Assembly: GCA_965644315.1 (NCBI GenBank)
Contig: CBFFRQ010000206.1
Coordinates: forward strand, 1-16,915
Reading direction: 5' to 3'
DNA from: Caecitellus pseudoparvulus
Taxonomy: Eukaryota; Protista; Bigyra: Bicosoecida
DNA length: 16,915 nt
Positions 1-16,915 of the stretch are shown here, one piece after another. The position numbers were made by a program, and so were the translations under genes. How positions within the stretch are numbered: the stretch's first letter is position 1; every line of letters starts with the position of its first letter. The notes beneath the pieces are model-generated. The model ran no database searches. It was not told the origin of the DNA and worked only from the letters and a program-made list of their open reading frames with translations.

Positions 1-3000
1 CTGAAGATTTTTGATGGTCTAAACCCTCGAGCACGGCCAGCGAAGTTGGCCCTCGCTGCCCTTGAGAAGCTAGAGGTACGTTGCTGCCTGCATGTTTCGC
101 GCTTGTATGAAGCTCTGTTCCCCGCACTTTGATTGCTTTTCTTCACAGACACCTCCAGACGTAAACCTGGTGCAAGCTTTCGTTTCAAGCGGCTTCATTT
201 CCCAAGTTGACATTGGGATTCGATTCGAGAAGGATAGTACCAAGAAACAGATTCAAGTTCTTGCCTCTCTTCTTGAGTTGACAATGGACGTTAGCTTGAA
301 GCTGTGTCAAGAAGGTGAACTGATCAGCTCGATCGGGGTAGAGTTCGAAAACCGCGTTGCTCAAGTGTGGGCGGAGAAGTTGCCGACGTACTTATGCAAA
401 GCAAAGGCCGAACTGTTGAGGATCGAAACACATGAAGCTGGTGGTGCTGAGTTGTGGGAGATCCTGGAGCGGTCTGGGGTTGTGAAGACCTCTCTGGAGA
501 TGGTGCAAGATGCGGCGAAGGGACTAGCCACGGTCAAGGTTCTGGGGAAAGTTTGTTCGCACTCTGTGGACTCTCTGGCCGAGTGTGACATTGACAAGTT
601 ATTTGAGGATCACGTGCCTGAGCATGTATCCGCAAACTGGATGTCCAGCTTCAAAGCGCAGCTGGAAGCGGCCGTTCGCACTGCATGGTTCAACAGTCAA
701 GCTCGGGCGCTGGGAGTTGTGAACTTGGCCGTGCCACTCCGTGCACTGCTGCTGTTGAAGAAGCGAGGCGAAGACGCGGCCAAGAAGCAGCTCGAAGATG
801 CGGGTGTTGTGGATAAGCAGTTCATCCAGAGACTCCTCAACACAGACGAAGCAACTTTGGATGTCTTGGTGGACAACTTCGGCTGGATGCTCGAGGCCGG
901 GGATGCCTTCCTACGAAAAAATGCGACAGTGTGGGACGTTTTCGAAGCGCTAATGACAGGGCTCGCCGAGGAAAAGTGCCTTCCGAATGCCGAAGAAGGC
1001 GAAAAGGGCATCGAGTGGACGACAGGGTGCTCTCCCATCTTCATGGACGGCATTTTGGAGGCTGTGGTTCTCCGCTTGCCTATCTGGAATGGCCAGCCGT
1101 TTCTGTTTGGACACGACAAGACAGGCTTGACAGAGGTTCCCTTTGGAGACTTGTCTCTGCAAGGCTTGCGACCAACAACGTACGGCATCCGCCCTGAATC
1201 ACCTTCGACTATGCTGCGTAAGGACCTATCCGTGACGACGTATGTCCTGACTCGTGGGCGAGTGAAACTGTTTGAGAAGGCCACCAAAACTTGCTTTGGA
1301 ACTCAGCTTGGGGTCATGACAACAGCCTCTCACGGAACTGGCAAATCTGCGTCAATGCGAGCGTTGGCGTTAATGTTGGGCCTTGGCGCAGGCGGCGATG
1401 TGATGTACTTGCCCAAGTCAGAAGTGTTGGTGCCAGGCACAGAAACGTTCAAAAAGCGAGCGCGCAGTCTGATGGAAGGCGGGCTTGCGCTGTCCTGCGC
1501 CAAAAGTCTCAAGAAGCCTGAGTTGTGCCAAGACATGGCGTCGATTGGCATTTATGGTGCTGACGCACACGAAGCCCTGGAACGCACGATGGTTCGTGGA
1601 GGTTCAGTGTTCCATCACAACGGCAAACAAGAGGGGGACTTTCCCACCCCTAGCTTGCTCATCATTGACGAAGCCAACAGTGTGCAAGGCGAGCTGCTCC
1701 GTCGCGAAGCATTGTCCGGAAGTGACGGCCAGCCTGCTGAGGAGGACAGCCAGCATGCCCAGTGGTGGTACCAACTGAAGGAGTTGTTCAAGTGGACAGA
1801 GGGCTCGAGCAAGGTCTTTGCATTCTCGCCTGATTTTCACGCAAGCCTTTTTGAGAAGAAAATCTACGAGCCTGTGGAAGAGCTGTTTGAAATCAAGACT
1901 TCCAACGACATGTATCATCCCTTCTTTGAGATGGAACGCATGAGGCCCGAGCTTGCGCTCCGGCTCATGCTGGGGCCAAAGGATGGCAAAGGCTCACTTG
2001 GGTTGTCAAAGAAGGTTGGCAGGGTCGCAGACATGCCAGCAGGTCACGATTCCTCCCTTCAGCTGCCTCCTCGGGCAATGGAAGCTCTGCGCACGAAGAG
2101 CAATTTGAAAATGCTCAAAGACTTCATTGAGTCTGTTGATGGCGTCGCTCGTCCGCTGAGCCATGCTGCGGAATTCGCAAAGTCAAGCACGGTTGTTGGT
2201 CCCACCTATTTCTCCGCGGCTGTGTGGCGAGCGTGGATAGAGGTTCGGGGTGACATGGAAAGGCGGTGTCTCAAGAAACTCCAAAGTTTGACCTCGAAGA
2301 ATCTGGTGGACAATAAGCCAGGCGTGGCCATGTTCCTGGATCACTCCATGGCTGCCTCGTCGATCCTCACCAGGGTCAACCCTGACATCTTGGAGTTGCA
2401 CGGGAACGTGGACTTCGCATCTCACATAGCAAGGCATGCTTTCATACGGGCGCTGCTGAGGCGCCACCGAGAAATTGCCGGGTCAAATGCTGACCAGGCA
2501 ACAAAGGATGCTTGGGACAGACTGCTGAACGGGGTGGCCCACCTTGGTGATGGCACCCACTTTGAGCACACTGTGGCAAGTCTGCTGGAGATGGGCATGT
2601 TTGGCTCCGACTACACACCGCTGTCAAAGTCAGCAGACAGAGAGCCAGTTGAAATGCTTCGAAGCTACTTCTACACCAAGGGCACCAACGCATTTTCCAA
2701 AGCCCAAACAAAGGAAGCAGCCGAGGGTGCCGGGCTTTCAGCCGCTGACGTATATGCCGTGCAGACCCTGAAGCCTGAGAGTGTACATGTGGTACGCACG
2801 CCCCACAGCTTTCCGGCTGTGGACTTTGTTGTTTTCCGGCGTCCACCCTCGCCAACTCCAGGGGCGGAACACAATCGAGCAAAGCTGCAGGTGGCTTTCA
2901 TTGAGACCACCGTGTCTTCCCTAGAAACTCATGGGCAGAGCCGCAAATTGAAGAATCTTGCCGTTTCTTCAAATGGCTCGCTCACGACGGGCGAGGTTGT

Positions 3001-3643
3001 ACTACCACAGTCCCTCAGAGACATCGCGAACCTCGCTTGCAACGTCAAGTACTTCACGGAAGTCGAAGGGTCACAGATGAAGTTTAGGAAGTCGAATCTT
3101 ATGGGTCGGAAGAAAACCACGATGGCGAACGCCATCCTGTGGACGTTTGGCGTGCCCGTCGACCTCAACTGTACAGTTCAGTGCTATTCCAAGAAGGAGT
3201 TCGGCAGGCTTATCATGGAGCCACAAGTGTTGTCCGGCACATCGCGAAGCAACGCTCTTGCCAATGCTGCTCAGTTGCTCCAAACACATAAAGATGCTGA
3301 TGAAGAGGATGATGATATTGGAACTCTTGAAGTGGCAACCAGTGAAAGCCTAGAAGGTGAACATGCAGACGAGAGGGCAGTTGCTGTGGAGGTCAGTGAG
3401 AGCGGAGCAGTGGCAGCCGAAGCGAAGGAGGAGTTGGAGAACCTTCCACTTGCGGCAGCCATCCAGGAAAGCAGTGATGTTGAGTTCTTCTTCATCTACT
3501 GCACACCACAGCCAATAGACGAGGGCAGTCACTCACCTGAGGTGGCGACAATCCCAGGCTTCTACGGAGTGTTTGAGCTAGGGTTCCTTCCTCCAGAAAT
3601 GAAGTCCCTGGAAGTCCCCGTGCCAGCCCAAGAAAAGAAGTAA
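1..3643 (+). CDS. Crinkler/RHS-type (CR) protein with P-loop NTPase plus C-terminal PD-(D/E)xK-like REase domain; 5'-partial, exons <1-75 and 149-3643
   Basis: Seen: Walker A-like TTASHGTGKS (~1325-1348), Walker B LLIIDE (~1655-1672), and GTHFE...PHSFPAVDFVVF...VAFIETTVS...H (~2550-2935). Established: NTPase followed by a P-x-x-F-P-x-x-D...(Q/E)-x-T-V...H REase is the CR/RHS effector architecture. Bases 1-75 are an open frame (LKIFDG...LEKLE) that splices in phase 0 to TPPD at 149, so the ATG at 92 is probably intronic. Ends in TAA. Confidence 0.7.
76..148 (+). other. Spliceosomal intron (73 nt, phase 0)
   Basis: GAG|GTACGT donor, pyrimidine-rich TTGCTTTTCTTCACAG acceptor; removal joins two open frames. 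Confidence 0.75.
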
Positions 3644-3686: not shown

Positions 3687-4036
3687 TGCTCCTCTTCCGA
3701 TCCACCTCGCCCAGGAGCGAGGTGGATCGGCATGATCCAGGCGCCAGGCGTGGCGGCCGTGTAGCGGGCTCGCCGCGCGAGGTCCGCGGCGGGCTGCCCG
3801 CGTTTCACGCCTGCGCCCTGAAGTTGAGCTTCTACCACGTGATCAAACACGGTCTTACAGTACCGAATGCACGTTTTCAGGACCTTCGTCCATCCGGGAG
3901 GTGCGGCGACCACCTCGTGGGGCCAGTAGAAACTTTTGCCCTCTGCGGCACCCCCAGAATTCGGGAGCAACTTTTGTCGCAAGGGCCCAGCAAATGCCTC
4001 CAATGCCTCAACGGCTTCCAGTGGGCCCTGGGACAG
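3687..4036 (-). mobile_element. 350-bp fragment of the 3' coding end of the non-LTR retrotransposon (copy of 9658-10007)
   Basis: Ungapped hand alignment with offset 5971 gives about 31 mismatches in 350 nt (~91% identity); translations are nearly identical (EALEAFAGPLRQKLLPNSGGAA...HLAPGRGG). Confidence 0.92.
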
Positions 4037-4822: not shown

Positions 4823-7800
4823 ATGCGGGGAGTCGGAGATCCAGCCACGCCTTCCTCGTCAGCTGCATCCACCCCCAGCAATTCTCCCTCTGTGACGCCA
4901 TCAGTGACAGCAACTCGCAGCGTGACCCGGTCATCAAGGCCGCCCGTGTGGCTCTCCTCGACTGTGCAGCAAGAAGTGGCCTTGAATGGGCGCACCATCG
5001 TAGCAGCACTGCACGATCCAGCGGTGCTGTTAGTTGGTGCATAGACAGGGACCAGTGTTGGCGCCCCCCTGTTTCCATCTGATGCAGCAAACCCGACGTC
5101 TGCTGCAACTCTGGTTCTTTTGAGCGTGTCTTGCATCGATACGAGGCTTGAGGCTTAGGGTCCATGTTTGCACTCGACAGACTGGTGGAGGGTGACTCGA
5201 ACCTTTCCGTCTACGTTTCCACGCTTGGCCGTCTCCCTTTCCTTGCAGCTTGGGCCTGCCGCAGTTGATGGGCTGCCACGACTCCCCAGCTCGTACTTGG
5301 AGTCGACTGGGAACTCGAGAGCATTTGACCTTGTGGTTCACGTCCGTGGCGTCGTAGGCTTGAATGCGACTGCAGTCGTGCCTGTGAAGGTGGTCGACTT
5401 GGCCCAAAGTTCAGCGCCACTGCCTTCCATCGCCCCGTCCAGGTCGCCCCTCGTGCGCCCGTCGAGCAGCAGAACGCCAACGCCAACGGCATCCAGCAGT
5501 GCATCCACCCAGCCAACGAAATCACCCGTTGCCTCTCCCTCGTCCACCGCCAGCGTCACTCCTCAACCCCTGCCGTTCCTCACCGCCTTCCCTGTGGAAG
5601 TGGGCGCTGCTTTCGAGCTGAACGGACAGTCTGATACAAAGGCTCAAGCTGTCATCGTGTCCAGTGCCGAACACGTGCACTGGGACGCTCAGGTTTCCTT
5701 TCGGGGCCAACAGCAGGGCTGGCTGACGCTGTCTGCATCCCAGAAGGCGCGACTCCCCGCAAACCAAGGCCAGCAAGGAGTCGTCTTGACCATGCAGTCT
5801 GCGAACCTTCCTCCTGGTCTGCACCGGGCCACTGTTACCTTCCAGGTAAACTCGACGGCTTCAAACGAAGCGGCTGGCGGGGCAACTGGGCGACTTCGGG
5901 TGGCCGACCTTTTGCCTGTCATTGTGCAGGTTTCATAGCGGGTCATCGCGCCGATCTCGGACATACGGCCTCGCATGGTGGAGCGCAACTTCATCCCAGG
6001 CGGCAACAGCACCCAACAGCTGCTTCTGCGAAACGTCGGGTCTGGCACCCTGACCTGGAGACTTGACCACGCGGACGCTACATTGGCACCATGGCTCGCA
6101 GTGTGCACCCCAGCAGGTGTATGTGGCCATGCTGGAGGCACCGGCTCCGACATTGCTTCCGTGCTTGCCAGTGAGCAGGGCGTCGTTTCCGTCGGCTCCC
6201 TTCGAGAAGAGTCAGGGGTGCTGCAGGGGTCTCTTGGCGTGGGTGAGCGTGTGCACCTCACAGTCTGGCTGGTTTCCCCGGGTGCAGCTGTCAGCGGGCT
6301 GTTTTCGAGCACCCTGCGCTTGCGCACGAATGAGTACGATCCCATGTCCAAAGCTGGGCAGCTTGATCATGTGCTGCCGGTGACCATGCGCTCTACGCTG
6401 CTTTCTGTGGTCCCTGGCACGGTGTCGCTGGCAGTGGCGCCCAGCAAGGAAGCCTCCGGCGTCGCCATCCTGCAAACGTTGGCATCCTTCGCTGATCTAC
6501 ACGTGCAAGTGGTACCGTCGCAGGGCACCATGTCCACAGCCACATGGCTGCAAACAACCACGACAAAGGATGAGCTCTTGCTGCCTGCTTCCACTGGGCA
6601 ACTGGTGGTGCATTTCAGCGTTGTGCATGGGGGTGAGCTGTGTCTTGGACCATGGCCACCACTTGGACTTCTGTGCGGCAGCAGAGAGCTAGCGGCAACA
6701 ATCCTGGTGCGCATCACTGCATCTGGGGCAGAAGGTGCGTCAGGTGCGACAGACGTGGCTGCGCTGGCTGCGTACGAAGAAATCCGGGCCATCCCTGTGC
6801 GAGTGCAAGTGCGCGGTGGAGGGGCATTCTCGCACACGAGCAGATTCATGCTGATCGATGCAGTTTCGTGGCCCAAACGCGCTGACCGCGAAGTGATCGC
6901 CATTCAGTCTGCTTTGAGCGGGCAACGCAACATGTCCATGGTGGATGCCTCAGCGTCTGGAAGCACAAACATTGTTTCCGAGCGGCAGCAAGTGGGGCTC
7001 TTGCTTGATGCCCGAGATGCCACAAGTCGCGAAGTGGAGTCCCTCGTTGAGTTACCGCAAGTGCGCCAGCTAGTGACTGGCGAAGCCGACCTGACTGTCG
7101 GGCTCGCCGCCCTGGACGAAGGGCGTGCCGTACTGCAAGTCCAACCGTCTCAGCCACAAACTACGCTGCTCAGATCCTCTATCTCTGGGCAAGCCATATA
7201 TCCGTATCTGTCACGGGGTGCGGTGGCTGTGCCTGCTGTGGTAGTGAGCCCAACTTGCCGCACCGACAGCGAGGTGCTGGCTGACTCGCAGATGGACTGC
7301 ATTTGTGCCACGGGCTGGCAGCGCCGCCAGAGCACCAATGACACTTTTGGGCTTCGTTGTGAATGCTGCCCTCCTGGAACAATCCGCGCCAACGTAGAGA
7401 ACCAAGAGGCCGCATGCACGCAGTGCCCTGGCGGCACGTTCGCCAACCTGGCCCAGACCAAGTGCTTGCAGTGCCCCTTGAACGGCGTCAGCTGTGCTGC
7501 TGGGCAGTTCAGGCCTCGCCCGGGTTTCTGGTGTGATACCTGCGTGACCGATGCGTCCACGGTGCCATCACACCCCAAGCTGCAGGAAAGGTACTGGAGC
7601 AAGCTGAAAGATGTGGCCAGTGCCGAGCTGCAGGGTGACACAACCAGCGCTGATTCGCCCGCGAGACGGCGTCTGCAAGCACTTGTGAATGAGACAGCTG
7701 AGTTGCAGGCCGCAGTCGCAGGGAAAGCGGTTCTTTACGCTGGTGCGAGCATCCTTCAGTGCACGCCTCCAGATGCGTGCAGGCCTGTAGCGAACTCGAG

Positions 7801-9106
7801 TGGCATCTCCTGCGTGCCTGGGCACAGGGGCATCCTCTGTGGCGAGTGTGCTGAAGGCTGGGCAAGGTCCAGCCCACAGCTGCTCTGTGTGAAGTGCCCC
7901 GATGACAGTTTTGGCTTTCTGCAGAGCATCGGCTCTTGGGTTTTGTTCGCGGGGCTCCTCGTTTACTTGGCCCTGCGCACGAGTGATCGGGAGAGCAAGG
8001 AGGGGCAAAGCAGGGGCCTGCTCATTGGAGTCTTCCGTGTCATGACCGGCTGGGCCCAGATGTTCGCAGTGCTGCTGAGTACCCGCTTGCCGCCTGAAAG
8101 CGCGTTGGATGGCATCATGGCGTGGCTCTCCTCAGTGTCAGTCGGCGTCAGCACCAACCCGGTCCCTGTCCAGTGTGCCTTGCGCGCAGACATGTACACT
8201 CGCTTCTTCATCACCCTGAGCATACCCATTGCTGCAGTGAGCATTCCGTTGATCGTAGCGGGTGTGACCAGCATCTTGCAGCGGCAAAGCCACGCAGTGC
8301 TGCAGGCTGCTGCTGAGAGGTATGCTGAGGAGAAGGGTGGGGGCTCAGTTGGCGGGGAAGGCGCTGCCGAGTCTGGGATGGTGGCGCCACAGCCCCTTGC
8401 CGCTTCCACTCCTCCCAAGAAAGAGGGTGCTCTGGTTGATGATACATTTGCCTTCCCTGCGCCAAAGACCCTGGTGTCTCCAACTTCCAGGCCTTCCGCG
8501 CTGGTTCCAAGGTCCACCTCATTCCAAGACGACACAGGCCCGACCGACCCATCTCCAGCAGCGAGATGGACATCTACGTGGGCTGACTTGGACGATCTGG
8601 CCGAGGCTGACGAAGAGTCAGAAGGCTCAGTTGTCATTGATATGCGCAAGCCGCGATCAAGCCGCGGCCAGGCGGCAGCGCAGGCTGAAGCAGCTGTGAT
8701 GCCTGGCGCACCGCCGGCTCACCCTGCAAGCATGCGCTCTGAGGAGAAAGCTGTGCTGGCAAAGACTGTGGACCTCTTCAAGCAGCGGGCGAGGTGTGCT
8801 GAGCAAGCGCATCGCGCAGCCTTCATCCTGCTCTTGCTGGTGCACTTCCCTGTAGTCGAGGCATGTCTGCGCATGCTGGACACGTACGACTTCCGAATCC
8901 TGGGCTTCCTGTTCCTCCGTTCAGAGCACTGGCCCGCACCATGGTTCGGGCGCTGCCGAAGGCTTATCAGAACCAAATTGTGCCGCGACAACTTGGGTGG
9001 CTTCGACAAAAGACTTTTCAGCTCTGTCTGCGATGGCACGTGGAGACAACTTCCATCCGCTGCTTGGGCACGGGGGTCCATGGCTGGGCTTGCAGCGCCT
9101 CCATAG
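4823..9106 (+). pseudogene. Large cell-surface multipass membrane protein gene (Ser/Thr/Pro linkers, cadherin-like and Ig-like domains, Cys-rich repeats, TM helices), interrupted by three in-frame TAG codons and probably 3'-truncated near 8925
   Basis: ORFs 4823-5044, 5168-5938 and 5975-9106 share one frame, separated only by TAG at 5042, 5156 and 5936. Motifs: GTSVGAPL..SD and FDLVVHVRG...VPVKVVD (cadherin-like), QQLLLRNVGSGTLTW (Ig/BACON-like), CxxCPxGTF and CVPGHRGILCGECAEGW (Cys-rich repeats typical of protist multipass receptors), several hydrophobic helices. True start and end are uncertain. Confidence 0.6.
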
Positions 9107-9644: not shown

Positions 9645-12143
9645 TCACTCACTTTCTTGCTCCTCTGCCGCGCCACCTCGCCCGGGAGCGAGGTGGCTTG
9701 GCATGGTCCAGGCAGCAGGCGTGGCGGCCGTGTAGCGGGCTCGCCGCGCGAGGTCCGCGGCGGGCTGCCCGCGTTCCACACCTGCGCCCCGGAGTTGAGC
9801 TTCTACCACGTGATCAAACACGGCCCCACAGTACCGGATGCACGTTTTCAGGACTTGCGTCCATCCGGGAGGTGCGGCGACCGCCTCGTGGGGCCAGTAG
9901 AAACTTTTGCCGTCAGCGGCACCCCCAGAATTCGGGAGCAACTTTTGCCGCAAGGGCCCAGCAAATGCCTCCAATGCTTCAGCGGCTTTCACTGGGTCTT
10001 GGTCCAGTAGATGGGTCGAGTTTCGGACTGGAACACGCAGCCGTTCCATGTGTGGCGCCGTGAGGGCAGCACAAGTTGCGTGATCCCAGTCCGCACACTC
10101 GGGTGCTCCCGTGGGCCACTGACCACACAGGGCGAGCCGCTTCAGCAACGCCCGGGTGTTCTGGCATGAGATACGTGTTCCAGTGTCCAGTTGACAGCCA
10201 GCCTGCACCGCTGTGTGCAGACTTTCTGGAATGGTGACGTATCTCAGAGGTGGGTGCCGAAGGGCCTCGGCCGTCGGCCGCCTCGGCACAGCGGTTGACT
10301 TTGCCGCTTCGTCACAGTCCAGCAAGTTCTGCGCAGCCTCTCGGAAGAACGCCAGACGTTCTAGAGACACTGAAGGGCAGTCCAGCAGAATGTGGTCTAA
10401 AATGAACTCCGCATCGCGTATTTCGGGGTCCAGACAGAGAGGACATGCGATATACGGCGTCAGGAGTGCACCCGGATGCAGGAGCTGCTGTGTCTGCAGC
10501 ATGAACACCTTCGGCAACCAACTTCTGTCAGGATGACAGGCAGTCCAAGCGCTACAGGGAACACTTGGAATCGGATGCAGTTCCGCGTGTGTTCGCGCTC
10601 GGACGTCCAAATGGTGAGGCCTCGGCGAGAGCGTCGGATTCACTCTTTTGTCGCCTATTTCTCCCCGAGGCGAGTGGCCCGGGTACTCAGCAGGTAGGAA
10701 CATGGTCTCCCGATACATGTCTGTTCTTTGCGTTCGTGCAATGAACAAGTACGACTGCAGGAGGTCCAAACGCTGCCTCAACGTGAAAGTGGCAGGGAAG
10801 TCAACCAACTTGTCGAACCTCGCAGAGGCCACAGGAACACTTGTTGCGACGAACAACTTCGGGCCGTTCTGGGCCGTGTTCTTGGGCAGCTTTAAGGCCT
10901 TTTGGAGAGATCGCATCTCTTCGTGTAGGGCCGTGGTGTCCCGATTTCCGCTCAAATCGTGCCACCTCGTGGCCATGGCCAGAACGCCGAACACACCTTC
11001 GTGGTACCCTAACAGGCGCAACTCCAAGAGGGGTCTGACGGCCCACGGAGTGCCTGTGCCATAGAAGGTGTGTTTCGAGGCCGCTACGTCTTCCAAAAGG
11101 AGGGCCGAAGGGACCCTCTCGTCCGGGACGTCCGCGACCATCGTTCGGCCCTGCCACACGCTCACCATCAGGATCTTGAAAGCAGGCGAATCCACCACAG
11201 CCTGCTTAAGTGTCCGGACTATGAAACCAATGCGACTTCGCATCGTGCGCATGTGTGTCAGAGGAATACCAGCCGCTGCAAGGACCGCGCCGTGTTGGAC
11301 GCGCATCGGATGAAGCTGAAAACCGAACACGGATTTGTCCAGAACACTGCCAATGGCATTGTCACACATGCGGTTGGGCATGAGCGAGTGTTTGCCGGTG
11401 ATTGCCAGTGTGTAGTCCGCTGCAGCGACCACTGAGGTCCTCAAAAGGCGGTGCGCTGCCGATGGGGCGAGCCATTCGGCCGCAGAAATCGCCACAGAAG
11501 AATGCCCAGCCATGCTCAAGGTGGTTGCGGCATGTCGACGAGCTGTTTTATGTTGTATGAACAGCTTGGCTTGTAGCGGTGTTCCTAAGTACTCGTACTC
11601 GTCCGTGAGAGGGATCCGCTTTCCGTCGACGGTTAGCGCCTGTGACTCCGCAGCAAGGCGTTTCTTGGCGCTGACTATCTGCACATGGAGTCGGCTCATG
11701 CGATACGCAAGTCGTGGTGTTGGTCGCATGATCATGATGGCCGACTTGGAGGCGTTGACTCTGAGCCCCAGCAGCGCCCCGACCCGCCTGACGATGGTGA
11801 TCGCACGGATCACGGCGTCCGCGCTGTCTACGACGAGTCCCAGGTCGTCTGCGTACAGCGCGTGGCTGAATCGGGGTCCAGTGTGGACTGGGTCCCCCTT
11901 TGAATGCAGTAGCTTGACCCCCAGTGTCGGTTTTTCCCCCGTTCCCTCCCCCGGAATGTGGTTCAAGGAGAGCGCACGGGACACCAGGTCGACCGCGATC
12001 TTGAATAGGAGGGGCGAGAGGACGCTTCCTTGCGCTACGCCACTGGTCGCGTGAATGGCCTCGGTCATGCCGTGTTCCGTGTCGATGCAGACGCTGGCGT
12101 TCTCGATGAAATCCACGAGGAGTCGCCTGGTGGTGCGGTCCAG
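9645..12143 (-). mobile_element. Non-LTR (LINE-like) retrotransposon ORF, 5'-truncated: C-terminal half of reverse transcriptase plus CCHC zinc knuckle
   Basis: GVAQGSVLSPLLF, LYADD, LGLRVNASKS, YEYLG RT motifs; CPLC...DHILLDCP. The frame extends upstream of the GTG at 12116 (LDRTTRRLLVDFIEN) to ~12143-12146, then meets TGA inside the palindrome. N-terminal RT motifs and endonuclease are absent. Ends TGA TAA. No poly(A) or TSD seen. Confidence 0.9.
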
Positions 12144-12247
12144 CTGTCACCCGCCAAAATCAATGAATTCAATTACTTATTAAGAGGGGCCCTATATAGT
12201 GCCCCTCTTAATAAGTAATTGAATTCATTGATTTTGGCGGGTGACAG
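12144..12247. repeat. 104-bp near-perfect palindrome (hairpin/cruciform) at the host-element junction
   Basis: 12144-12190 is the exact reverse complement of 12201-12247 (47 bp). The centre C-CTATATAG-T is self-complementary except for one C/T mismatch (12191/12200). Confidence 0.98.
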
Positions 12248-12327
12248 GGGGCTTTTATGGTGTCATTTTCAACCATTCAATCATTCAATTCTGTGACCAT
12301 CATCGTCTCATTTCTGTCATTCATTCA

Positions 12328-12481
12328 TTTCTGGCGGATGTTCAGTCTCACTCAATTCACGCAATTCATTCATTCAATTTCACGACCATCACCGTGTCAT
12401 TTTTCTTTTGTATTTGTTTCTGGCGGATGTTCAGTCTCACTCAATTCACGCAATTCATTCACTCAATTTCACCACCATCAC
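12328..12481 (+). repeat. 65-bp direct repeat x2 (12328-12392, 12417-12481) within a G-poor TCAAT/CATT low-complexity tract (~12255-12625)
   Basis: TTTCTGGCGGATGTTCAGTCTCACTCAATTCACGCAATTCATTCA...ACCATCAC, 63/65 identical, period 89. Confidence 0.93.
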
Positions 12482-12703
12482 GCTCTCAATTCAATCCACT
12501 CAATTCAATCATTTTCTCTCTCAGTCACAACTTCTTCAATCAATTATTTTCAACACCATCAACGCTCTCAATCCACTCAATCAAATCATTCACTTACAGT
12601 CTCACCAGTCACAAAAACCACTTTTTCACACGGCGCTCCCAAAGGTCGCACCGCGCAACGAGCGACAGCGAGTGAGCACACACCTCAAAAACAACATACC
12701 GCT

Positions 12704-13044
12704 GGTGACAATAATTATCGTCACCCATTCTTATGCTCTTAATATTTCACTCATTTTATCTCTTATTAGACACCTACTATGGTCTTGTTCTTTCAACATT
12801 TTTAGAGGGTGACGGAGTGACGATAATTTCGGACTACCTCCTCGTAAAAAATCAAGTTGTAACACAAACACTACAACTTAAAAAAAGATAAAAGGGTTCT
12901 CCCAAATTATCGTCACTCCGTCACCTCTTACTATAATTATCACACTACTCTATCACTTTGTTACCATAACTGGTATAAATCTCACGGTGACAATAATTTT
13001 TTGTTTTCGTCACCTTCCGTCACCTCCGTCACCTTTTCGTCACC
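12704..13044. repeat. GTGAC/GTCAC iteron-like array with inverted and direct copies; putative replication origin or protein-binding region
   Basis: GTGACRATAATT at 12705(+), 12713-12724(-), 12817(+), 12905-12916(-), 12987(+). Perfect 22-bp inverted repeat 12808-12829/12904-12925. CGTCACC x4 at 13008, 13018, 13027, 13038. The repeats are seen; the function is inferred. Confidence 0.8.
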
Positions 13045-13080
13045 CACACCCTATCCCACATCTCTCTCATATTGAGGGGC

Positions 13081-13890
13081 TTACTTAAAGCGTCCGCGCT
13101 CACGGTTCAGCACCACCGAACTATACACTCCACCAATTAACGTGCTTAATTTATGTGCTTTTAATGTGCTCTCTGCGGGTATTTTTAACACCACCGTATT
13201 CCATGGCGACACACTTGCTATATTTTGACTTATTACATCACCCTCCACCACATAGTTTGTTGCTAACTGATTTCTAAACATATCCTCGTTCTGTAATGGA
13301 CTTGAACCTGCGTTAAATGTTATTACTCTTGATGTCTTGAATGTTTGAAAACCCAAATCTAATGCTATATCTCCACCTAACGAAAATCCTGTTAAAATTA
13401 TATTATCTGCGTCAAATCCACTATTCATTAAACCCATAACTCGTAACTTAACCTCCTCTACCATTTCAAAAAATGACAAAGTCCCTGTTCCAGTCAATAA
13501 ACCCATATCTGCTTGTATGTCATTCACATCTGTTAATTTCGTGCCTCGTATTGCTACGATTGCTGTGTTTGTTAAGAATGTCTTTGTATAAACTGCTACA
13601 CGCTCCGTGCTGTGCTTCCTACTATACAAATAATATGTGTCAAACACACCCTGCCTATTCTCCACAGACTTAAATGCCTCATTACACATCTCACCACATA
13701 AATATGCCTCGTGAGGTATTTCTATTTTTTGAAACACATCACTTATGGTTGAAACTTGTAAGGGATTGTAATTCATTTTATATTTTTCTGTCACCTTCTC
13801 TCTACTACTTGCTGTGACTTTATCAAAAACATAAGACTTTAATGCCTCTTCTAACAATTCATAAAAGACTGTTGCCATTATAATATACAT
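13081..13890 (-). CDS. Alpha/beta-hydrolase, class 3 lipase-like (start may be ATG at 13878)
   Basis: IVAIRGT, nucleophile elbow TGFSLGG (GxSxG), TFNAG, GDVIS (candidate catalytic Asp), KAH (candidate catalytic His). Confidence 0.85.
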   Translation of the reverse strand: MYIIMATVFYELLEEALKSYVFDKVTASSREKVTEKYKMNYNPLQVSTISDVFQKIEIPHEAYLCGEMCNEAFKSVENRQGVFDTYYLYSRKHSTERVAVYTKTFLTNTAIVAIRGTKLTDVNDIQADMGLLTGTGTLSFFEMVEEVKLRVMGLMNSGFDADNIILTGFSLGGDIALDLGFQTFKTSRVITFNAGSSPLQNEDMFRNQLATNYVVEGDVISQNIASVSPWNTVVLKIPAESTLKAHKLSTLIGGVYSSVVLNRERGRFK

Positions 13891-13904
13891 TATGGTGATA
13901 TATT
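13884..13904 (-). promoter_or_regulatory. Shared AT-rich upstream motif AATATATCACMATAATGTATA (copy 1)
   Basis: 20/21 identical to 15812-15832; both sit at the same distance from the ATG-N9-ATG start. Confidence 0.65.
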
Positions 13905-13924: not shown

Positions 13925-14056
13925 TTACCCCATCTTTGCCATTATTTTTTTAACTTGGTTATATTCTTTTGTGCCCTTTTTTGGTACTAAATACTTTCCA
14001 GTTTTGTTGTGTTTAGAATTCCACTCCTTCAAAGCCATTATCCATTTATTAGCCAT
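13925..14056 (-). CDS. Small basic protein, 43 aa (MANKWIMALKEWNSKHNKTGKYLVPKKGTKEYNQVKKIMAKMG); not in the ORF track
   Basis: ATG to TAA, co-oriented, fills the gap between neighbours, Lys-rich, preceded by TGTATAATAAAAATG like the adjacent genes. Confidence 0.75.
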   Translation of the reverse strand: MANKWIMALKEWNSKHNKTGKYLVPKKGTKEYNQVKKIMAKMG

Positions 14057-14088
14057 TTTTATTATACAATACAATAATATTTTAATTT

Positions 14089-14165: not shown

Positions 14166-14726
14166 CTAAAAGTCATCCATTTCAGTCAATACATTCCCAC
14201 TTGCGTCTTCTAAATGATATGTAGATAAGAGAGCAGAAATGAATGATTCAATTTTATCCAGTTTTCCATCGTGTTCCACATCTTTTTGTTGCCTATCTGC
14301 GATTGCGGTTGAGAGTGATTGCGTAAGGGTGCTGTCCGCGTTTTCCAGTTGAGTAACAACAGCGTCATAAGCGGTTTGAGACACTTTTTCGTTAATTGCT
14401 TTATCCACTTCACCTTGGATTTCATTTGTATTGTTGGTAATCCACGCGTTAATGGCGTTAATAGAAGCATCTACACCATCTATACGAGTAGAAACATCGC
14501 TAAAAGAAGCATCTACACTAGCACGAATAGCGCCTCTGTCTTGGGCTGCCGAAGAAATTGAAGAAGATAGTTGAGATGCGAGTTGTGCGTTCTTGGTGTT
14601 TTGTGCTTGTGCGTTAGCATTTGCGTTAGACACGAAAGAAGTCACAACATCGTATAAGTATTTGGAGTAACCGAAAGCGCCTTGACCTGAAGGAACAGTA
14701 AATTGAGTTTGTGTAGTTTGGCTCAT
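14166..14726 (-). CDS. Coiled-coil protein, 186 aa; possible virion fibre/shaft
   Basis: A/S/Q/N-rich helical sequence with heptad-like pattern (LASQLSSSISSAAQDR, LTQSLSTAIADRQQKDVEHDGKLDKI). Function is inferred. Confidence 0.75.
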   Translation of the reverse strand: MSQTTQTQFTVPSGQGAFGYSKYLYDVVTSFVSNANANAQAQNTKNAQLASQLSSSISSAAQDRGAIRASVDASFSDVSTRIDGVDASINAINAWITNNTNEIQGEVDKAINEKVSQTAYDAVVTQLENADSTLTQSLSTAIADRQQKDVEHDGKLDKIESFISALLSTYHLEDASGNVLTEMDDF

Positions 14727-14759: not shown

Positions 14760-15818
14760 TTAATTTATATCAATTCCATATACTTCTAATTCTTTCAATT
14801 GAACTGATGTGTCACTAATACTAACTAATCTTACTGCTTTGACATTCATAACATTACTAAATGGTATTTCTACTTTCTTATTTACATCATTATAATCTGC
14901 GGTTAATACTGATGTTAATACATTATCATCTTCATCTAATAGTTCTAATCTGTATTGCTTCCAACGATTAGCAGCCCAACTCTCTTGTAAAGTATAATAT
15001 ACAACTTTTTCAACACGCTTCTTCCCATTAAAATCAATTCGTAACCATTCCCCTGTTCGTTCTTCCGTAACAGATGCTATACGATAATCCCCATCTTTTA
15101 TACCGTTGTTTGAATAGATTGCGTAATTATCATCATTTGTTCCATAACGACTTGATTGCGTTGCTACACCTCCGTTTGTGTCTAATGCTACATTATATGG
15201 TTCTTGTTCTTGAACTATTCCGCCATAACTCACGAAAATAGTATATTCATTTAATCCATCTTCAAAATTAAACCTAAATAACTCTTCACGGTTTTCATTC
15301 AATAACACGAGCCTAAAATCATTTATTCTACTCATAAAACCATCTGCCCTGTTAAATACTTTTACACTTTGTATGTTAAAATCACTCACTAAATCAACTT
15401 CCCACCATTCATTATTTCCATTTGCGGTTAGAGACATTTTTTCACTATTTATAACTTTTACCCCATCAACCGCTTCTGGAGCAAATCGCTTGTTTTCTAA
15501 ACTTGAAGATTGTGTTGCTGGTTTAAAGAGTGCTACATTTGTATTTGTATTGTCATATGCCTCAACTTCTCTCAATTGTAAATATTGACCGTTTCCTGTG
15601 CGGTTTTCAATACGAACATACCTAACTAATGTGTCATTATTATTACCACTACTATCAACACCTCCGTTGTTGTTGCCACCACTTACTTCCCTTCCTAAAA
15701 AGTAATTGAAATTCACATCATTCTCACTTGCGTCTTTCATAACAAACACATCACTTTGATAATCCACATACGACTTCAATACTTTGCTAAAACCTACATA
15801 ACTCATATTATTATACAT
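14760..15818 (-). CDS. Protein with two F5/8 type C (discoidin / F-type lectin-like) domains; possible receptor-binding protein (start may be ATG at 15806)
   Basis: NVALFKPATQSS...AVDG...WWEVDL...VKVFNRADGFMSR and NVALDTNGGVATQSS...WLRIDF...VKAVRL...QLKELEVYG. Confidence 0.85.
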   Translation of the reverse strand: MYNNMSYVGFSKVLKSYVDYQSDVFVMKDASENDVNFNYFLGREVSGGNNNGGVDSSGNNNDTLVRYVRIENRTGNGQYLQLREVEAYDNTNTNVALFKPATQSSSLENKRFAPEAVDGVKVINSEKMSLTANGNNEWWEVDLVSDFNIQSVKVFNRADGFMSRINDFRLVLLNENREELFRFNFEDGLNEYTIFVSYGGIVQEQEPYNVALDTNGGVATQSSRYGTNDDNYAIYSNNGIKDGDYRIASVTEERTGEWLRIDFNGKKRVEKVVYYTLQESWAANRWKQYRLELLDEDDNVLTSVLTADYNDVNKKVEIPFSNVMNVKAVRLVSISDTSVQLKELEVYGIDIN

Positions 15819-15832
15819 TATTGTGATATATT
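15812..15832 (-). promoter_or_regulatory. Shared AT-rich upstream motif AATATATCACMATAATGTATA (copy 2)
   Basis: 20/21 identical to 13884-13904. Confidence 0.65.
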
Positions 15833-15849: not shown

Positions 15850-16050
15850 TCAATCCATAGGCGTAAACTTCAATTCCACAAAAATCCTGTAATACACATC
15901 ATACTGCTGGTATCCTTCGCTATTCTTGTATAAATCTGATGAGTAATACACATTAAGGTTGGTTGTGTATGAGCTTGACTTCGTTATGGTCTTTGAAAAT
16001 ACGTGTTTTGTATTACACGCCACATAGTCATTACCATAATTGAGATTTGG
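15850..16050 (-). pseudogene. C-terminal 66 codons of a gene whose 5' part is replaced by the telomere; beta-rich, possibly a minor capsid (penton)-type C-terminus
   Basis: Open frame PNLNYGNDYVACNTKHVFSKTITKSSSYTTNLNVYYSSDLYKNSEGYQQYDVYYRIFVELKFTPMD* runs up to the first telomeric repeat with no usable start codon. The product guess is weak inference. Confidence 0.65.
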
Positions 16051-16900
16051 TTAGGGTTAGGGTTAGGGTTAGGGTTAGGGTTAGGGTTAGGGTTAGGGTT
16101 AGGGTTAGGGTTAGGGGTAGGGTTAGGGTTAGGGTTAGGGTTAGGGTTAGGGTTAGGGTTAGGGTTAGGGTTAGGGTTAGGGTTAGGGTTAGGGTTAGGG
16201 TTAGGGTTAGGGTTAGGGTTAGGGTTAGGGTTAGGGTTAGGGTTAGGGTTAGGGTTAGGGTTAGGGTTAGGGTTAGGGTTAGGGTTAGGGTTAGGGTTAG
16301 GGTTAGGGTTAGGGTTAGGGTTAGGGTTAGGGTTAGGGTTAGGGTTAGGGTTAGGGTTAGGGTTAGGGTTAGGGTTAGGGTTAGGGTTAGGGTTAGGGTT
16401 AGGGTTAGGGTTAGGGTTAGGGTTAGGGTTAGGGTTAGGGTTAGGGTTAGGGTTAGGGTTAGGGTTAGGGTTAGGGTTAGGGTTAGGGTTAGGGTTAGGG
16501 TTAGGGTTAGGGTTAGGGTTAGGGTTAGGGTTAGGGTTAGGGTTAGGGTTAGGGTTAGGGTTAGGGTTAGGGTTAGGGTTAGGGTTAGGGTTAGGGTTAG
16601 GGTTAGGGTTAGGGTTAGGGTTAGGGTTAGGGTTAGGGTTAGGGTTAGGGTTAGGGTTAGGGTTAGGGTTAGGGTTAGGGTTAGGGTTAGGGTTAGGGTT
16701 AGGGTTAGGGTTAGGGTTAGGGTTAGGGTTAGGGTTAGGGTTATGGTTAGGGTTAGGGTTAGGGTTAGGGTTAGGGTTAGGGTTAGGGTTAGGGTTAGGG
16801 TTAGGGTTAGGGTTAGGGTTAGGGTTAGGGTTAGGGTTAGGGTTAGGGTTAGGGTTAGGGTTAGGGTTAGGGTTAGGGTTAGGGTTAGGGTTAGGGTTAG
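16049..16900 (+). repeat. Telomeric (TTAGGG)n tract, ~142 units, G-rich strand running toward the window end
   Basis: Nearly perfect array; variants GTAGGG near 16117 and TTATGG at 16741. Confidence 0.99.
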
Positions 16901-16915
16901 AGCAATACTACATGT
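16901..16915 (+). other. Probable nanopore ligation adapter remnant
   Basis: AGCAATAC matches the start of the reverse-complemented ONT ligation adapter (AGCAATACGT...) and lies at the very end of the sequence. Confidence 0.6.

What the first reader, a model, noticed from the sequence alone, without database searches (positions are those of the whole stretch)
12144..12247. 104-bp palindrome that looks like an opened covalently closed hairpin end
Seen: 47-bp perfect arms plus a CTATATAG centre and one C/T mismatch five bases from the axis (12195/12196). The left arm abuts host DNA; the right arm continues into element repeats that share its TGGCGG and CAATTCA words. Established: hairpin-ended replicons (poxvirus/ASFV termini, protelomerase telRL sites, parvoviruses) give such palindromes, often with unpaired bases near the tip, whereas mavirus/Polinton ends are described as TIRs for protein-primed replication. 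Inference: a nick ~52 nt from a hairpin tip, unfolded and ligated to the chromosome, would produce exactly this structure.
Basis: partly seen in the sequence, partly recalled or inferred. Interest (0 to 1): 0.8.

Follow-up and report, generated by a model that had tools for sequence, protein, structure and literature searches.

The report
Palindromic end of integrated protist virus
A 102-letter palindrome marks the exact end of a small virus-like element inserted into a jumping gene near a protist chromosome tip; it likely folds into a hairpin when the virus copies itself, a kind of end that a 2026 preprint already described for related viruses.

Summary
The palindrome is real (52 paired positions, one C/T mismatch at 12191/12200) and is not a read artefact: short-read contigs of other samples span its axis, one letter for letter. 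The true unit is 12145-12246 (102 bp, TG...CA): C12144 is also in the empty retrotransposon site. It is the outer end of an AT-rich element, by its 43-aa gene a virophage or Polinton-like virus, inserted in a reverse-transcriptase gene and cut off by a telomere 3.9 kb further on. Three other junctions fall at the same TG (within 1 nt), so the end is fixed, and it fits the TGTNR end of rve integrases. Contig geometry shows variants changed in both arms at once, a variant without the mismatch, and about two arms and one tip per inner repeat. So the fold is kept, not the letters. Best reading: a hairpin-forming terminal palindrome, regenerated at fixed length and inserted by an integrase, as described for Halocafeteria virophages (bioRxiv 2026.07.28.741278). 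New member of a known kind.

The parts
9645..12144 (-). Reverse-transcriptase ORF of a multicopy retroelement (non-LTR type by its motifs, recalled), broken inside the RT domain by the insertion; its 5' part is missing from this chromosome end
   Evidence: ORF; Pfam RVT_1 positions 109-203 of 205 only; contigs of X1, X3, X8, X12 continue the gene past 12144 without the element; depth 379-500 against 49 for the element body in X1
12145..12246 (.). Terminal palindrome, 51-nt arms, starts TG and ends CA; outer end of the element
   Evidence: axis-spanning contig X12 record 13 (12161-12230, 0 differences); X8 records 26 and 28 begin at 12145 and end at 12246
12145..12149 (+). TGTCA terminus, fits the TGTNR end pattern of Gypsy/Ginger (rve) integrases
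   Evidence: sequence; pattern from PMC2836005 passages
12191..12200 (.). Tip: C/T mismatch around CTATATAG; predicted 10-nt loop; a variant without the mismatch is inferred in X12
   Evidence: X12 record 14 reproduced by the random-letter graph model
12247..13190 (.). Mostly non-coding AT-rich region, likely the rest of the terminal inverted repeat: 89-bp tandem repeats 12275-12492, inverted repeat 12808-12838/12895-12925; inner limit uncertain (about 13.1-13.2 kb)
   Evidence: higher depth and an alternative continuation at 13190 in X1, X3, X5; the second end of the element is absent, so the repeat is inferred
13081..13890 (-). 269-aa alpha/beta-hydrolase (lipase-like) gene
   Evidence: Pfam Abhydrolase_2 below cut-off in the window protein, above it in 2 of 3 homologues scanned; homologue in PLV-like contig L020, E 6e-9
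13925..14056 (-). 43-aa gene conserved in virophages and PLV-like viruses; the best marker of the element's kind
   Evidence: tblastn hits, 42-68% identity, in 19 of 21 IMG/VR loci; 10 of the 21 scanned: 5 with Sputnik-type capsid or penton, 5 with A32 ATPase
14166..14726 (-). 186-aa ORF, no family; 31 unnamed relatives
14760..15818 (-). 352-aa gene with two F5/8 type C (discoidin) domains
   Evidence: Pfam PF00754 E 4e-15; homologues
15850..16048 (-). C-terminal 65 codons of a gene cut by the telomere; unidentified
   Evidence: no hits
16049..16900 (+). (TTAGGG)n telomere joined directly to the broken element
   Evidence: contigs of X1 and X3 match up to 16048 with 0 differences and run 27 nt further (records 8 and 16; those letters not seen)

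Best explanation
The 102-bp TG...CA palindrome is the fixed outer end of an integrated AT-rich element, likely a virophage or Polinton-like virus, and it likely folds into a hairpin during replication of the free genome and is likely joined to host DNA at its terminal CA by a retrovirus-type integrase. Shown: palindrome, its position at the element/retrotransposon junction, the empty site, the same boundary at other junctions. Inferred from contig geometry: both-arm substitutions, a mismatch-free variant, two arms per end. Inferred from analogy: each single-stranded end folds back and primes DNA synthesis; a site-specific nick at or just inside the base of the stem, followed by copying, restores the open 102-bp end at constant length, one arm being templated or corrected on the other; the open end is the integrase substrate. 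After insertion into the RT gene this copy was broken 3.9 kb in and healed with telomere repeats, losing the core genes and the other end.
For: Fixed end: window junction plus X12 record 16 (arm, then 70% GC flank), a second X8 loose end at 12246, and a 35-nt arm remnant starting at the same TG in X1, X3, X5, X8; X8 arm contigs bounded exactly at 12145 and 12246, the pattern that several flanks give in the model. TGTCA fits TGTNR (about 1 in 128 by chance, my arithmetic). X12: five contig boundaries and depths (45 nt/106.7, 32/70, 70/36.7, 52/28.2, inner from 12218/59.2) are reproduced by a two-variant model with one both-arm change at 12189/12202 and no tip mismatch (45/100, 32/72, 70/36, 52/28, inner 50; weights were fitted to two of the depths), not by a one-arm change. 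X1: the arm contig has 1 difference that must lie in 12201-12225, and the tip contigs that overlap it on both sides have 1 and 2. Kind of element; GC 35-40% against 58-60%. [quoted passage not shown]
Against: No integrase, polymerase, primase-helicase, nuclease, capsid or ATPase gene is in the window, and no full-length copy was found, so TSD, second end and enzymes are untested. None of the contigs shown from X1, X3, X5, X8, X12 carries this window's own RT/palindrome junction (lists were cut for X3, X5, X8). The variant letters were not seen; they are deduced from counts and boundaries. In X12 only one outer flank (depth 4.9) was seen against about 50 expected; in X1 the tip is at depth 25 against 100 for the inner repeat, so the 2:1:1 ratio holds in 1 of the 2 runs with full lists (I ascribe both to hairpin drop-out and graph pruning, recalled, untested). 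The second X8 flank is A-rich and could be element rather than host DNA. Both-arm change also follows from selection for a protein-binding inverted repeat or from gene conversion. The remnant is one old locus and X12's junction is ambiguous by 1 nt.
Confidence: 0.68

Rival explanations
1. One reading: the free genome has covalently closed hairpin ends (poxvirus or protelomerase type); a nick about 52 nt from the tip opened one end, which was ligated to the chromosome by repair, giving variable arm lengths.
For: Geometry of the palindrome and an unpaired position near the tip; telRL-like hairpin ends are proposed for an endogenous algal giant virus (PMC13236599 passages).
Against: 4 of 4 junctions at the same TG within 1 nt, matching TGTNR; mismatch absent in X12 variant B; X12 depth 1.8:0.86:1 fits open ends (2:1:1), not read-through of closed hairpins or a circle cut beside one telRL-like site (2:1:2).
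Confidence: 0.1
2. The palindrome is a fixed double-stranded recognition site (for integrase, primase-helicase or a packaging protein) or a cruciform for excision, kept symmetrical by selection or gene conversion, and does not prime replication.
For: Fixed length, TG...CA, both-arm changes fit equally; in Cafeteria virophages a new primase/helicase comes with a new TIR sequence (PMC10945749 passage).
Against: 51 perfectly paired positions with almost no spacer are far more than a binding site needs (inference); the preprint links such ends to elements lacking the protein-primed polymerase.
Confidence: 0.17
3. Accidental fold-back made once by DNA repair at a break (the preprint's own alternative), in this subtelomeric, rearranged locus, or an assembly/read chimera.
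For: The locus is broken and telomere-healed; the window's junction was not seen in other contigs; the last 15 letters of the window look like a nanopore adapter remnant (recalled).
Against: The axis is spanned in contigs of three other runs from three studies (X1, X8, X12), with 0 differences over 70 nt in X12; several sequence variants keep the symmetry.
Confidence: 0.03
4. A transcription-end (polyadenylation) hairpin of the giant-virus type that happens to lie at the element's edge.
For: 54-74-bp palindromes occur downstream of genes in 3 related viral contigs, L016, L018, L025; all window genes point towards this end.
Against: It lies 835 bp beyond the nearest stop (13081) and coincides to the base with the integration boundary.
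Confidence: 0.02

Closest known systems
Terminal palindromes of endogenous virophages (subtypes 1, 2, 5, 6) and PLV subtype 4 of Halocafeteria seosinensis (bioRxiv 10.64898/2026.07.28.741278; passages and sections 7 and 10 read, figures and supplements not seen)
   Same: Palindrome at the outer edge of the TIR, next to host DNA; 52-nt figure for subtype 5 against 51-nt arms here; subtelomeric partial copies beside LINE RT; same hairpin-priming model
   Different: Another host (flank GC 58-60% against 47-48%); here TSD, second end and replication genes are missing; TG...CA ends, both-arm changes and a dispensable mismatch are not mentioned in the parts I read
Mavirus and EMALEs of Cafeteria burkhardae (PMC8547959, bioRxiv 068312; passages and one section read)
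   Same: Low-GC, intronless, TIR-bounded endogenous virophages with rve integrase; TIR 0.2-2.3 kb; insertion near repeats
   Different: No hairpin or palindrome is mentioned in the main text of PMC8547959 (0 occurrences) and no hairpin in the mavirus preprint; low-GC types use pPolB; host is high-GC
Gypsy LTR and Ginger transposon ends, TGTNR (PMC2836005, passages)
   Same: First five bases TGTCA; integrase superfamily shared with Polintons
   Different: No terminal palindrome described in the passages read; no integrase gene is left in this copy
Parvovirus rolling-hairpin ends; poxvirus and N15 telRL hairpin telomeres (recalled; PMC8956199 listing only; PMC13236599 passages)
   Same: Long terminal palindrome able to fold back; in parvoviruses an open duplex form of fixed length is made by a site-specific nick
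   Different: No HUH nuclease, resolvase or protelomerase found; flip/flop not testable; mismatch apparently dispensable; end is an integrase-type TG...CA

Membership tests
Endogenous virophage / Polinton-like virus | Capsid, penton, packaging ATPase (and protease) genes | tested here: inconclusive
   None in the surviving 3.9 kb; the element is cut by the telomere; the 65-codon fragment is unidentified
Endogenous virophage / Polinton-like virus | Accessory genes shared with virophages/PLVs | tested here: met
   43-aa gene in 19 of 21 viral loci; all 10 scanned carry virophage capsid/penton (5) or A32 ATPase (5); lipase homologue in L020. Some of the 21 are near-duplicates
Endogenous virophage / Polinton-like virus | Low GC, compact intronless genes, sharp boundary | tested here: met
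   GC 0.35-0.40 against 0.58-0.60
Endogenous virophage / Polinton-like virus | TIRs at both ends and a target site duplication | not testable with these tools
Halocafeteria-type palindromic TIR ends | Palindrome of 20+ nt arms at the TIR extremity, abutting host DNA | tested here: met
Halocafeteria-type palindromic TIR ends | Present on all copies, at both ends | tested here: inconclusive
   X12 depth ratio 1.8:0.86:1 says nearly every inner repeat has a tip; X1 tip is under-covered
Halocafeteria-type palindromic TIR ends | Non-pPolB replication gene and rve integrase | not testable with these tools
   Genes absent from the window; TGTNR end is indirect support for rve
Covalently closed hairpin telomeres (poxvirus, N15 telRL) | Fold-back molecules turning at the axis; genome sequence on both sides of the replicated junction | tested here: not met
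   Outer arm leads to non-element DNA in the window and X12; depth ratio does not fit read-through. Only contigs of cellular samples were available, so free virus DNA is untested
Covalently closed hairpin telomeres (poxvirus, N15 telRL) | Conserved unpaired bases with flip/flop forms | tested here: inconclusive
   Mismatch absent in X12 variant B; flip and flop cannot be told apart with 31-letter words because the arms are longer (inference)
Covalently closed hairpin telomeres (poxvirus, N15 telRL) | Resolvase or protelomerase gene | not testable with these tools
   No full copy

The most novel reading that the evidence does not exclude
A lineage of virophages/PLVs has swapped protein priming for parvovirus-like hairpin-transfer replication: closed or fold-back ends are opened by a site-specific nick placed so that the regenerated end carries the CA that the rve integrase needs, coupling end resolution to integration. 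The both-arm substitutions and mismatch-free variant seen here would be the first sequence-level footprint of that cycle, which the Halocafeteria preprint only proposes.
Probability: 0.35. Interest if true: 0.7.

Novelty: new member of a known kind. Interest (0 to 1): 0.42.

Why it matters
How virophages and PLVs that lack the protein-primed polymerase copy their ends is open; one preprint proposes hairpin priming and asks for wider characterisation. This locus adds another host and three testable details: the palindrome ends exactly at an integrase-type TG...CA, its arms change together, and its tip mismatch is dispensable. The family is present at many copies in sequenced cultures (X8, X12), so reads that exist could test flip/flop, TSDs and gene content. 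By itself the locus is a broken copy and does not establish the mechanism.

Tried and rejected
Exact-pattern scans: viral contigs 0, genome contigs 0; metagenome contigs 5 loci, all chance 21-letter matches with no palindrome or further similarity, dropped. The search for related loci in viral contigs found nothing for the lipase, its alignment, the discoidin and the 186-aa protein. The truncated gene had no significant match. Atlas gave no answer. No RNA holder listed. My first reading took the X1 loose ends at 12145 and 12179 for two insertions, one with a shorter arm; one search showed they are one 295-nt contig with a 35-nt remnant, so there is no evidence of variable arm length. X1 record 5 (depth 1.9, perfect tip) may be an error and is not counted. 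The shortage of outer flanks in X12 could mean free linear ends, but contig pruning explains it as well; not used as evidence. Palindrome scan of the 21 IMG/VR loci found arms of at most 37 nt, none like this end; short-read contigs rarely keep such ends. Earlier-findings look-ups by place and sequence were empty. Paper searches; passages of PMC6723459, PMC11296320, PMC6431247 and bioRxiv 2022.07.28.501842 held nothing on terminal palindromes of virophages. A recollection that the original mavirus paper mentions 50-bp hairpin-forming repeats was not confirmed.

Full report
Observation. The inverted repeat is at the stated place: arms 12144-12195 and 12196-12247, 52 nt, 98% complementary, no spacer. 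There are 47 perfect outer pairs, a C12191/T12200 mismatch at the fifth position from the axis, and four inner pairs. It folds as DNA at -57.9 kcal/mol, z -16.9, 0 of 200 shuffles as good, with a 10-nt loop; 20 of 20 simulated sequences of the element's composition gave arms of 8-11 nt. TGGCGG is shared with the downstream repeats; CAATTCA is not in the palindrome.

Setting. To the left is a minus-strand ORF 9645-12146 with the second half of a reverse-transcriptase domain, GC 0.60. To the right is a 3.9-kb stretch of GC 0.35-0.40: about 0.9 kb mostly non-coding with 89-bp repeats, then five compact minus-strand ORFs (lipase-like, 43 aa, 186 aa, double discoidin, and a cut C-terminal fragment), then 142 TTAGGG units. 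Contigs of X1 and X3 match the element to 16048 without a difference and run 27 letters on, as expected if the telomere follows there in those samples too (letters not seen).

What the element is. No core viral gene survives. The 43-aa ORF 13925-14056 has homologues at 42-68% identity in 19 of 21 IMG/VR loci drawn by a motif pattern (several loci are near-duplicates). I scanned ORFs of 10 of the 21: 5 carry Sputnik-type capsid or penton genes and 5 an A32 packaging ATPase; L020 also has a lipase homologue. The element is therefore most likely a virophage or Polinton-like virus, broken and telomere-healed; which of the two cannot be told.

Where the element ends. Twenty of 21 listed public runs hold part of the stretch, in 12 studies; five were laid, all as contigs. 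In X1, X3, X8 and X12 the RT gene continues past 12144 without the element, and read by eye the 30 printed letters keep its frame open. C12144 is thus in the empty site, and the element starts at 12145 with TG: the palindrome is 102 bp, TG...CA. Other junctions: X12 record 16 has the arm followed by a 70% GC flank after 12247 (mirror of 12144; one letter ambiguous); X8 has arm contigs that begin exactly at 12145 (depth 684) and end exactly at 12246 (depth 289), and two loose ends at 12246, one apparently the remnant below and one A-rich and unassigned; one host locus seen in X1, X3, X5 and X8 holds a 35-nt arm remnant starting at the same TG. So 4 of 4 outer junctions lie at 12144-12145. I first misread the remnant as a shorter-armed insertion; one search corrected that. 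TGTCA fits the TGTNR end pattern of Gypsy and Ginger integrases (PMC2836005 passages). Against: no contig shown carries this window's own junction (all 8 records listed for X1 and for X12; 8 of 9 for X5, 8 of 21 for X8). A 60-letter link between a high-copy retroelement and a high-copy arm is what contig assemblers prune (recalled), and a chimera would not be expected to join at the terminal TG, but the junction is unconfirmed.

Not an artefact; arms change together. X12 record 13 spans the axis (12161-12230) with 0 differences; X1 and X8 also span it. A de Bruijn model made of random letters reproduces all five X12 contig boundaries around the palindrome, and their depths, if X12 holds two variants: one like the window and one perfect palindrome with the same pair changed in both arms (12189/12202); a one-arm change gives other boundaries. 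The weights were set from two observed depths, the boundaries were not fitted. In X1 the collapsed arm contig has one difference that must lie in 12201-12225 (the next contig has none from 12226), and the tip contigs overlapping it on either side have one and two, again a both-arm change. The letters themselves were not printed. X12 depths are arm 106.7, tip about 51, inner repeat 59.2, or 1.8:0.86:1, near the 2:1:1 of an open palindrome on every end and not the 2:1:2 of closed-hairpin read-through or of a circle opened beside a single site. X1 does not show this ratio (tip 25, arm 88, inner 100), and X12 shows only one outer flank at depth 4.9; drop-out and pruning are my untested explanation. 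Flip/flop of the mismatch cannot be read from 31-letter words.

Mechanism. Shown: fixed palindromic end at an integrase-type terminus. Inferred: symmetry is maintained across variants, so the arms are copied from or corrected against each other, which needs the hairpin to form. Proposed (0.68 for the whole, about 0.85 for 'fixed end of a virophage/PLV repeat'): the free genome's ends fold back to prime synthesis, a site-specific nick near the stem base restores the open 102-bp end, and an rve integrase joins its CA to host DNA. Rivals: double-stranded recognition site or excision cruciform (0.17), closed hairpin opened by a chance nick and ligated (0.10), repair accident or artefact (0.03), transcription hairpin (0.02).

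Comparison. [quoted passage not shown] This locus matches in position, size and context; TSD, second end and enzymes could not be tested. The Cafeteria papers (PMC8547959 passages and section 7; bioRxiv 068312 passages; PMC10945749 passages) give TIRs, TSDs and a link between primase/helicase type and TIR sequence, with no hairpin in the passages searched. Six literature searches found no other report of such virophage ends, and TG...CA ends or both-arm changes are not in the parts of the preprint I read; its supplements may hold them.

Verdict. Real feature, new member of a recently described kind, with modest added evidence that the fold is maintained and that the end is an integrase substrate. 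Interest 0.42.

Noticed in passing
window 16040-16060: The element is cut inside a gene and joined straight to TTAGGG repeats: de novo telomere healing within a viral insertion, apparently shared by samples X1 and X3.
   Followed up: partly
X1 record 2, X5 record 23, matching window 12145-12179: A host locus shared by X1, X3, X5 and X8 holds only the first 35 nt of the arm (3-4 differences), starting at the TG: an old footprint of the same family.
   Followed up: partly
window 3687-3986 and 9658-9957: 92% identical repeat: a second, short 3' piece of the same retroelement sits just after the 1189-aa host ORF.
   Followed up: no
window 13876-13904, 14055-14083, 15804-15832: AT-rich motif repeated at the starts of three element genes (family D6), a likely promoter for a helper-virus polymerase.
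   Followed up: no
window 12808-12925 and 13009-13045: A 31-nt inverted repeat with 56-nt spacer and a cluster of GTCACC words, the same word as in the terminus; possible binding sites for the integrase or origin protein.
   Followed up: no
window 13094/14110 and 15422/15989: Contigs in X1, X3, X5, X8 skip the lipase and 43-aa genes, and in X1 and X3 skip 566 nt further right: related copies with different accessory cassettes.
   Followed up: no
window 16901-16915: Fifteen non-telomeric letters after the telomere resemble a nanopore adapter remnant (recalled, not checked).
   Followed up: no
L025:335-408, L016:15529-15588, L018:480-533, L007:94-150: 54-74-bp near-perfect palindromes in free virophage/PLV-like contigs, three of them downstream of genes, possibly transcription-end hairpins.
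   Followed up: no
window 74-3643 and 5159-9106: Host ORFs: a 1189-aa protein with a P-loop-like motif and no Pfam family, and a cysteine-rich membrane protein (weak DUF7630/NCD3G hits).
   Followed up: no
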